DNA of 64,000 nt from Escherichia coli (GTDB lineage: Bacteria > Pseudomonadota > Gammaproteobacteria > Enterobacterales > Enterobacteriaceae), in assembly GCF_045037415.1 (NCBI RefSeq), contig NZ_CP173438.1. The stretch is one strand, 5' to 3'. Under the pieces are notes generated by a model that was not told the DNA's origin, made no database searches, and worked only from the letters and a program-made list of their open reading frames with translations. Every line of letters starts with the position of its first letter. Position 1 is the first letter of the stretch. Shown here piece after piece: positions 58,085 through 58,436 of this stretch. Made by a program: the position numbers and the translations under genes.

Positions 58085-58267
58085 ATGCGAAAATTCAAAA
58101 TAATTATTGAAACGGGAATAGCCGGTGGAGATTTCGAGGATGAATTCGAAGTGGATGATGATGCAACACCAGATGAAATACAGGATGAAGCTAAAGATAT
58201 TTTCTTTAACTACTGCAATTACTCATACCACGAAATAAAAGACGAAGAGGAAGAACAAAATGGCTGA
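58085..58267 (+). CDS. small highly acidic protein (60 aa)
   Basis: about 22 of 60 residues are D/E against about 6 basic; acidic tail DEEEEQNG. Confidence 0.5.
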   Translation: MRKFKIIIETGIAGGDFEDEFEVDDDATPDEIQDEAKDIFFNYCNYSYHEIKDEEEEQNG

Positions 58268-58436
58268 TTTTGGTTCAACTAAATATAACGCCAGTTTTGA
58301 AGAATGGCATGAACTGTTAATGGATTATGCAGAGTTACGCGGTGGAAGTGCCGCTGATGCTGAAGCATGGCGTGATGATTATGAAGCAGGGAAAACACCG
58401 GTCGAAGCATATTGTGATGAGTGGGGCGATGAATGA
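58260..58436 (+). CDS. small acidic ORF (58 aa)
   Basis: below the track threshold; MADFGSTKYNASFEEWHELLMDYAELRGGSAADAEAWRDDYEAGKTPVEAYCDEWGDE; start overlaps the previous stop and stop overlaps the next start. Confidence 0.4.
   Translation: MADFGSTKYNASFEEWHELLMDYAELRGGSAADAEAWRDDYEAGKTPVEAYCDEWGDE

What the first reader, a model, noticed from the sequence alone, without database searches (positions are those of the whole stretch)
58085..58436. Two consecutive small, strongly acidic proteins: candidate DNA mimics or anti-defence factors
The 60-aa protein at 58085-58267 has roughly 22 acidic against 6 basic residues and an EEEEQ tail. The overlapping 58-aa ORF at 58260-58436 is also D/E-rich. 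Small, highly acidic early-region phage proteins are the signature of DNA-mimic anti-restriction or anti-defence proteins such as Ocr and ArdA. No homology can be asserted from sequence alone, so this is a hypothesis.
Basis: inference. Interest (0 to 1): 0.55.

Follow-up and report, generated by a model that had tools for sequence, protein, structure and literature searches.

The report
Two small acidic prophage accessory proteins
Two real, conserved, very acidic 60- and 58-residue proteins sit in the early operon of an E. coli prophage; they belong to catalogued families of unknown function (DUF7167/phrog_1997 and phrog_519), are not relatives of Ocr or ArdA, and an anti-defence or decoy role is plausible but untested.

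Summary
ORFs 58085-58267 (60 aa, 20 D/E vs 5 K/R, pI 4.05) and 58260-58436 (58 aa, 16 D/E vs 4 K/R) overlap by 8 nt. They are under purifying selection (pN/pS 0.11 and 0.19). The pair occurs in 1,749 of 5,426 complete E. coli genomes.

The window is an E. coli chromosome. The genes lie in a prophage early operon between the replication genes and terminase.

orf60 is Pfam DUF7167/phrog_1997, and its acidity is conserved by position across Proteobacteria and Firmicutes phages. orf58 is phrog_519, common in Ackermannviridae. The two families occur independently outside E. coli prophages.

AlphaFold2 gives compact folds: a beta-hairpin plus helix (pLDDT 86) and a three-helix bundle (pLDDT 88). Neither has a significant structural or sequence match to Ocr, ArdA or any other characterised protein.

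The only functional hints are for the orf58 module. It is fused to a NADAR domain (a class that includes anti-DarTG1 enzymes) in two T5-like phages, and to rIIB in one environmental phage.

Best reading (about 0.4): each is a separate stoichiometric acidic binder or decoy for a host or defence protein. Ocr/ArdA membership is rejected. Interest is modest.

The parts
58085..58267 (+). orf60: 60-aa hyper-acidic protein, Pfam DUF7167 / phrog_1997. Predicted beta-hairpin (residues 2-8, 17-23) plus helix (29-43) plus an acidic, low-confidence C-terminal tail.
   Evidence: RefSeq WP_001224665.1.
58260..58436 (+). orf58: 58-aa acidic protein, phrog_519, no Pfam family. Predicted three-helix bundle (13-27, 34-42, 47-55) with conserved W16, W37, Y41, G44.
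   Evidence: RefSeq WP_000753053.1.
58056..58084 (+). Translation-initiation region of orf60. It holds AGGAGG (58056-58061), a 6-bp stem with GAAA loop (58062-58077), then 7 nt before the ATG. The hairpin would shorten the 23-nt SD-to-start distance. It is conserved in the E. coli copies of the cassette.
   Evidence: Sequence. Fold and conservation in 13 upstream variants. The functional reading is inference.
58013..58455 (+). Extent of the mobile two-gene cassette. Many phages and prophages share only this block with the window, in at least 8 upstream and 6 downstream contexts.
   Evidence: Query ranges 414-855 and 455-855. Context classes. Contexts.
57645..57956 (+). orf103: upstream neighbour in the same operon, also strongly acidic (25 D/E vs 8 K/R), phrog_1372, function unknown. 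It is context, not part of the conserved cassette.
58433..58792 (+). orf119: downstream gene whose ATG overlaps the orf58 stop (ATGA). phrog_660, near-neutral charge. It is the downstream neighbour in the 45-locus class that includes the window, out of 84 loci.

Best explanation
These are two unrelated accessory genes of an E. coli prophage. They travel together as a 0.44-kb mosaic cassette and are transcribed as part of the early operon (replication genes, then DUF1064 resolvase, HNH, small ORFs, terminase).

Each encodes a compact, folded, hyper-acidic 6-7 kDa protein. orf60 belongs to DUF7167 and orf58 to phrog_519.

The most likely mode of action is stoichiometric. Each protein would bind the basic, nucleic-acid-binding surface of a host, defence or rival-phage protein and block it, acting as an electrostatic decoy early in lytic growth. 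The two would act independently of each other.

Shown: gene reality, conservation, conserved acidity, predicted folds, early-operon position, independent family distribution, and the fusions of the orf58 module.

Inferred: the binding/decoy mechanism and any anti-defence role. The target is unknown.

They are not homologues of Ocr or ArdA.
For: - Genes are real and under selection.
- Extreme negative charge is conserved. In DUF7167 it is conserved by position: 11 columns at least 80% D/E, and a median 30% acidic residues. A paper on TifA gives 29% for Ocr (PMC10680825).
- Models are confident and compact (pLDDT 85.7 and 87.9), so these are folded proteins and not only disordered acidic tails.
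- They sit in accessory slots of early operons in many phage types:
  - the nin-like region here and in Klebsiella phage ST512-KPC3phi13.3;
  - among the early ssb and Ea22-like genes of Stx phage ArgO145;
  - the Arf-Erf-SSB-x-Dam-DUF7167-HOT-x-Xis-Int region of a P22-like prophage.
- The cassette is mosaic, with at least 8 upstream and 6 downstream neighbour classes. It decays in degraded prophages: a pseudogene in the ATCC 8739 dicA/ydfABC (Qin-type) region and an insertion into orf58 that I read as IS5 in L089. This argues for phage benefit, not host benefit.
- The orf58 module is fused to a NADAR domain in two T5-like phages. Phage NADARs neutralise DarTG1 (PMC11257639, PMC11543638).
- The orf58 module is also fused to an rIIB protein next to an rIIA-like gene (1,012 aa, HATPase_c_3) in a 155-kb phage contig.
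- Precedent: TifA is an acidic small phage protein that is not B-DNA-shaped yet directly binds and inhibits type IV restriction enzymes (PMC10680825).
Against: - No experiment or homology links either family to any target.
- phrog_1997 and phrog_519 are both 'unknown function'.
- The literature search found nothing on DUF7167 and only an AcrHub software prediction for phrog_519.
- The supplements of two phage accessory-gene screens do not contain these sequences.
- The fusions are rare. NADAR-orf58 occurs in 2 of 646 records with any match to the 218-aa fusion protein. The rIIB fusion is one environmental protein that matched my profile at only E=4e-4. They may simply reflect adjacency of accessory genes.
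- Acidity alone is weak evidence, because neighbouring genes of unknown function are acidic too.
- DUF7167 often lies beside DNA-metabolism genes (exonuclease, Dam, SSB, HOT). That fits a replication or recombination accessory role equally well.
- I could not inspect model coordinates, so no surface-charge geometry was measured.
Confidence: 0.4

Rival explanations
1. They are true B-DNA mimics that block type I restriction-modification or BREX, in the manner of Ocr or ArdA.
For: Charge density is comparable to Ocr: 33% and 28% D/E against 29% quoted for Ocr in PMC10680825. Expression is early. From my own knowledge, very small DNA mimics exist, such as phi29 p56 (56 aa) and T7 gp5.9 (52 aa).
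Confidence: 0.07
2. They are accessory factors of the phage's own DNA replication or recombination. For example, they could modulate an exonuclease, annealase or SSB, or shield a phage DNA-binding protein until it is needed.
For: DUF7167 is translationally coupled to a PD-(D/E)XK exonuclease in Klebsiella Guernseyvirinae phages, within a helicase / SSB-annealase / DNA polymerase module. In Enterococcus herelleviruses it overlaps a gene annotated as exonuclease. In a P22-like prophage it lies between Dam and HOT, downstream of Erf and SSB. Here it follows the O/P replication genes, a resolvase and an HNH gene. The wide host range of DUF7167, Gram-positive and Gram-negative, fits a target conserved in phages or in all bacteria.
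Against: The immediate neighbours are not constant. The cassette is absent from most phages that carry the same replication or recombination modules (only 35 phage records hold DUF7167). That pattern is typical of dispensable accessory genes. orf58 relatives sit in unrelated places, for example directly after the major head gene in Kuttervirus ECML-4.
Confidence: 0.2
3. They have another phage-host role: modulating the lysis-lysogeny decision or induction, host takeover of a non-defence target (nucleoid proteins, RNA polymerase, division), or anti-CRISPR activity.
For: In Stx phage ArgO145 the pair lies among the early ssb and Ea22-like genes. From my own knowledge, small ORFs in the corresponding exo-xis region of lambdoid phages are reported to affect lysogenisation and induction. 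phrog_519 members of Kuttervirus were scored as candidate Acrs by AcrHub (PMC9409062). The cassette DNA is AT-rich, 40% GC against 52% for the window, as H-NS-silenced DNA tends to be.
Against: No HTH (aca-like) gene accompanies them. The Acr call is a software score only. No evidence of toxicity or a regulatory motif was found. Lytic phages carry both families, which argues against a lysogeny-specific role.
Confidence: 0.2
4. They are not functional genes: chance ORFs or decaying remnants.
For: They are very short. Some copies are pseudogenes.
Against: pN/pS is 0.11 and 0.19. Homologues are conserved down to about 30-45% identity in distant phages. AF2 folds are confident. Ribosome-binding sites and coupled start/stop overlaps are present.
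Confidence: 0.02

Closest known systems
Pfam DUF7167 (PF23768) / PHROG 1997
   Same: orf60 matches the whole Pfam model (E=1.6e-14) and the whole PHROG profile (E=2.7e-30). 38 of 41 aligned relatives match DUF7167.
   Different: Nothing differs; it is a member. The family itself has no known function.
PHROG 519 (261 proteins, unknown function)
   Same: orf58 matches at E=8.5e-23 over its full length. Relatives occur in Ackermannviridae, a T5-like phage, a Morganella phage and temperate enterobacterial phages.
   Different: It covers only columns 76-137 of the 143-column profile, because some members carry N-terminal extensions. There is no Pfam family; DUF5419 appears only at E=0.027 for one relative.
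T7 Ocr (gp0.3) and plasmid/transposon ArdA DNA mimics
   Same: Small, early-expressed, about 30% acidic residues. A decoy mechanism is conceivable.
   Different: No sequence or fold similarity. About half or a third of the size. The predicted shapes are globular, not elongated DNA-like dimers. No evidence of type I R-M inhibition.
TifA (phage phi47 Orf65), inhibitor of type IV restriction enzymes
   Same: A small phage protein with a highly electronegative surface that is not B-DNA-shaped and works by direct binding (PMC10680825). This is the best functional analogy for what orf60 or orf58 may do.
   Different: TifA is described as two domains with an SH3-like N-terminal domain. orf60 is a hairpin plus helix and orf58 is a three-helix bundle.
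Phage NADAR (anti-DarTG1) and rIIB proteins
   Same: An orf58-like module is fused to these proteins in a few phages.
   Different: orf58 itself has neither domain. The fusions are rare and one looks recent: the module in phage EP_H11 is 73% identical to orf58.

Membership tests
Pfam DUF7167 (PF23768) | Significant full-length match to the family HMM | tested here: met
   orf60 residues 2-53 match model positions 1-60 of 60, E=1.6e-14. RefSeq names it a DUF7167 family protein.
PHROG 519 | Significant match to the PHROG profile | tested here: met
   orf58 residues 1-58, E=8.5e-23.
Ocr (T7 gp0.3) family | Sequence match to the Ocr Pfam family | tested here: not met
   Pfam-A scans of both proteins and of 87 relatives list no Ocr hit, even at E<=10. 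That Pfam-A contains an Ocr family is from my knowledge.
Ocr (T7 gp0.3) family | All-helical elongated dimer imitating about 24 bp of bent B-DNA | tested here: not met
Ocr (T7 gp0.3) family | Binds and inhibits type I R-M enzymes or BREX BrxX | not testable with these tools
   Needs plating or binding assays.
ArdA anti-restriction family | Sequence match to ArdA and a three-domain protein of about 165 aa forming a DNA-like dimer | tested here: not met
DNA-mimic proteins in general (a functional class with no common fold) | High density of surface carboxylates | tested here: met
   Net charge is -0.25 and -0.21 per residue. The acidity is conserved in both families.
DNA-mimic proteins in general (a functional class with no common fold) | Carboxylates arranged like a DNA phosphate backbone | tested here: inconclusive
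The folds are compact and could imitate only a few base pairs.
DNA-mimic proteins in general (a functional class with no common fold) | Occupies the DNA-binding site of a target protein | not testable with these tools
   No complex prediction or experiment was available.
Anti-CRISPR (Acr) loci | Adjacent aca-type HTH regulator, or homology to a validated Acr | tested here: not met
   The neighbours are orf103, orf119 and a DUF551 protein, none with an HTH. The only link is an AcrHub score for phrog_519 in Kuttervirus.
Known anti-phage defence proteins (PADLOC) | Match to a PADLOC model | tested here: not met
   No hits at E<=1 for either protein or three neighbours.

The most novel reading that the evidence does not exclude
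DUF7167 and phrog_519 are two new families of minimal (about 6-7 kDa) electrostatic decoy inhibitors of bacterial immunity. On this reading, the orf58-type three-helix module is a portable decoy or targeting domain that phages also bolt onto counter-defence enzymes (NADAR, rIIB). The cassette, present in about a third of E. coli genomes, would then be one of the commonest anti-defence loci in the species.
Probability: 0.15. Interest if true: 0.6.

Novelty: new member of a known kind. Interest (0 to 1): 0.3.

Why it matters
If either protein proves to be a defence inhibitor, it would assign a function to a Pfam DUF and to a 261-member PHROG found in temperate and therapeutic phages, including Kuttervirus, Klebsiella and Enterococcus phages. 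It would also add very small, easily expressed inhibitors to the anti-defence toolbox. As it stands, the finding is an ordinary example of uncharacterised acidic accessory genes in a prophage early operon. Its main value is as a cheap, well-defined candidate pair for a plating or pull-down screen.

Tried and rejected
- Sequence homology to characterised proteins. Pfam, NCBIfam, PADLOC, and PDB by single sequence and by profile gave nothing beyond DUF7167. Marginal L23, AnkX-insertion and ORF56 matches (E of about 0.005-0.1) were judged to be local beta-alpha or helix motifs, not homology.
- An obligate orf60-orf58 partnership. Rejected because each family occurs alone in other phages.
- A plasmid leading-region anti-defence gene. 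Rejected: only 11 plasmid records, 10 of them non-mobilisable.
- Literature. There are no papers on DUF7167 or DUF5419, or on the accession numbers. No matching sequence is in the supplements of two accessory-gene screens.
- Promoter and terminator scan of 57400-58900. There are no + strand promoter-like sites and no terminators, so the genes are internal to a longer operon.

Full report
**What is there**

The window matches an E. coli chromosome at 100% identity over the 1,301 bases 57600-58900 (strain A1.S1.18, NZ_CP146595.1). The finding lies inside a prophage. The gene order is:
- integrase, MT-A70 methyltransferase, RecT, PD-(D/E)XK nuclease and repressor on the minus strand;
- then, on the plus strand: a cro-like gene, DnaT-like/O and P replication genes, a DUF1064-type resolvase, an HNH endonuclease ORF, a run of small ORFs, a DUF551 protein, a regulator, and small and large terminase.

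**The two proteins**

| | orf60 | orf58 |
|---|---|---|
| Coordinates | 58085-58267 | 58260-58436 |
| Length | 60 aa | 58 aa |
| D/E vs K/R | 20 vs 5 | 16 vs 4 |
| pI | 4.05 | 4.05 |
| Net charge per residue | -0.25 | -0.21 |

orf60 has a DEEEEQNG tail. For comparison, the window's 49 ORFs of at least 150 aa have mean net charge -0.002 per residue, sd 0.043.

The start of orf58 overlaps the stop of orf60 (ATGGCTGA). The stop of orf58 overlaps the start of the next ORF (ATGA). No + strand promoter-like site or terminator-like site lies in 57400-58900. The genes therefore sit inside a longer, translationally coupled early operon.

**Are they real genes?**

Yes.
- Both are annotated in RefSeq.
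- Among 20 and 15 distinct DNA variants collected from related loci, pooled pN/pS is 0.106 and 0.193.
- The 352-bp pair occurs at 80% coverage or more in 1,749 of 5,426 complete E. coli genomes, almost always on the chromosome. Only 11 plasmid records carry it.
- Each has a Shine-Dalgarno sequence. For orf60, a strong AGGAGG lies 23 nt upstream. A conserved 6-bp GAAA-loop hairpin lies between it and the ATG and would bring the two closer.

**Family assignment**

- orf60 is a full-length member of Pfam DUF7167 (E=1.6e-14) and phrog_1997.
- A profile search extended the orf60 family to Klebsiella, Citrobacter, Yersinia and Pseudomonas. tblastn and Foldseek extended it to Enterococcus herelleviruses, Clostridia, Paenibacillus and Xanthomonas.
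- orf58 has no Pfam family. It is a member of phrog_519, which has 261 proteins (PMC9409062).
- orf58 relatives are in 198 phage records. Most are Ackermannviridae of Salmonella, Klebsiella and Escherichia. A full HMM scan of 1.84 billion representatives found 80 relatives, nearly all 50-70 aa long.
- Neither protein hits NCBIfam, PADLOC or any PDB sequence.
- All weaker PHROG hits are also 'unknown function'.

**Structure**

- With a 41-sequence alignment, AlphaFold2 predicts orf60 as a beta-hairpin (2-8, 17-23) packed on a helix (29-43), with a lower-confidence acidic C-terminus. Mean pLDDT is 85.7 and pTM 0.59.
- With 46 sequences, orf58 is a three-helix bundle. Mean pLDDT is 87.9 and pTM 0.70. 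Its conserved aromatic residues (W16, W37, Y41) are presumably in the core (inference).
- I could not access coordinates, so I did not measure how the carboxylates are arranged.

**Is the acidity meaningful?**

It is conserved.
- The DUF7167 alignment has a median 30% acidic residues and median net charge -0.22 per residue. Eleven columns are at least 80% D/E, including the FEV(D/E)DDAT motif.
- phrog_519 relatives have median net charge -0.17, though a few distant members are near neutral.

So negative charge is a selected property, most clearly for orf60. It is not specific evidence, however. The upstream orf103 and a Klebsiella-phage neighbour are equally acidic and equally uncharacterised.

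**Are the two a functional pair?**

Probably not an obligate one.
- In E. coli-type loci they are together in 85 of 86 cases, and 83 of those share the same overlap.
- Klebsiella, Enterococcus and Pseudomonas phages carry DUF7167 without phrog_519. Ackermannviridae, a Morganella phage and a T5-like phage carry phrog_519 without DUF7167.
- The E. coli cassette (about 58013-58455) sits in at least 8 upstream and 6 downstream contexts. These include the region after the replication genes in dicA/ydfABC (Qin-type) prophage regions and in records named Rac, and the early ssb and Ea22-like region of Stx phage ArgO145.
- In degraded prophages the cassette decays.

**Functional hints**

For DUF7167, the neighbours are often DNA-metabolism genes:
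- a translationally coupled PD-(D/E)XK exonuclease in Klebsiella Guernseyvirinae;
- Dam and HOT in a P22-like early-left operon;
- a methyltransferase in the ATCC 8739 dicA/ydfABC (Qin-type) region.

For phrog_519, the module is fused in three kinds of protein:
- C-terminally to a NADAR domain (Pfam E=1.2e-26) in the T5-like phages EP_H11 and IME392;
- N-terminally to an rIIB protein next to an rIIA-like gene (1,012 aa, HATPase_c_3) in a 155-kb environmental phage contig;
- to a short N-terminal domain of a 151-aa protein that I did not identify.

Phage NADARs are orphan antitoxins that neutralise the DarTG1 defence (PMC11257639, PMC11543638). rII genes are classically linked to escape from Rex exclusion (my knowledge). 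These fusions are rare, and the EP_H11 one looks recent (73% identity to orf58). They are a hint, not proof.

**Mechanism**

The best-supported reading, at about 0.4 confidence, is as follows. Each protein acts as an independent, stoichiometric, electrostatic binder or decoy. Its target would be the basic nucleic-acid-binding surface of a host, defence or competitor protein. It would be made early in lytic growth.

TifA is a documented precedent for an acidic small phage protein that does not look like B-DNA yet directly inhibits restriction enzymes (PMC10680825).

The narrower Ocr/ArdA-type reading is disfavoured (about 0.07). There is no homology or fold resemblance, and each protein is too small to fill a type I enzyme's DNA site.

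A replication or recombination accessory role (about 0.2) and other host-takeover or regulatory roles (about 0.2) remain open.

**Novelty and verdict**

The genes are catalogued (Pfam DUF, PHROGs, RefSeq) but functionally uncharacterised. I found no paper on them.

This is an ordinary but clean pair of candidates. Of the interpretation, only the loose sense of 'candidate acidic inhibitor' is supported. Membership of the Ocr and ArdA families is rejected. Interest is modest (0.3).

Noticed in passing
window 58056-58087: A strong AGGAGG lies 23 nt upstream of the orf60 ATG. Between them is a conserved 6-bp stem with a GAAA loop (CCGYCC-GAAA-GGGCGG). The window copy has a T·G wobble where most copies have C-G. 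This may be a hairpin that shortens the effective SD-to-start spacing. Most copies also have an in-frame TAA just before the ATG, whereas the window has GAA. That explains the 84-87-aa N-terminally extended database entries.
   Followed up: partly
window 56692-57300 (+): A 202-aa ORF matches HNH endonuclease PHROGs (phrog_1271, E=3.7e-23). It lies in a stretch that RefSeq leaves unannotated in the identical genome (L001 8097-8804). It looks like a homing-endonuclease insertion between the DUF1064 resolvase and the small ORFs. The related Klebsiella phage ST512-KPC3phi13.3 has no gene annotated as HNH at that position.
   Followed up: partly
window 57645-57956 (+): orf103 (phrog_1372) is a third strongly acidic protein (25 D/E vs 8 K/R, pI 4.14) directly upstream. 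It contains several Cys residues. It is the upstream neighbour in only 9 of 80 related loci.
   Followed up: partly
L092 2506-3162 (Escherichia phage EP_H11, OP688485.1 53013-53669); also phage IME392: A NADAR domain (the class that includes anti-DarTG1 enzymes) is fused in frame to a C-terminal orf58-like module. The module is 73% identical to the prophage orf58, suggesting recent capture from a temperate phage by a T5-like lytic phage.
   Followed up: partly
L097 1966-6284 (JGI metagenome contig Ga0193962_1000005): An rIIA-like gene (1,012 aa, HATPase_c_3) is followed by an rIIB protein (427 aa, PF26926). The rIIB N-terminus carries a phrog_519-like module (E=2e-8).
   Followed up: no
window 58773-59918 (+): The long ORF (381 aa from a TTG start) is split by RefSeq into a partial DUF551 pseudogene and a 324-aa DUF551 protein. 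It is mosaic, matching several PHROGs piecewise (phrog_60, 924, 14306, 5117), as Ea22-like modular proteins do.
   Followed up: no
PP818812.1 (Actinobacillus phage vB_Apl-pPE4) 11347-12121: A phage recorded as infecting Actinobacillus pleuropneumoniae carries the E. coli-type cassette at 92.5% nucleotide identity. That is unexpectedly close for a Pasteurellaceae phage. It may reflect very recent transfer, or a host or assembly mix-up.
   Followed up: no
L089 about 4195 onward (IMGVR_UViG_3300029862_000097): One copy of the cassette has orf58 interrupted after codon 9 by an inserted element. From the start of its translated product (MSHQLTFADSEFSTKRRQ...) I recognised it as an IS5-family transposase gene. 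This was by recall and was not checked with any search.
   Followed up: no
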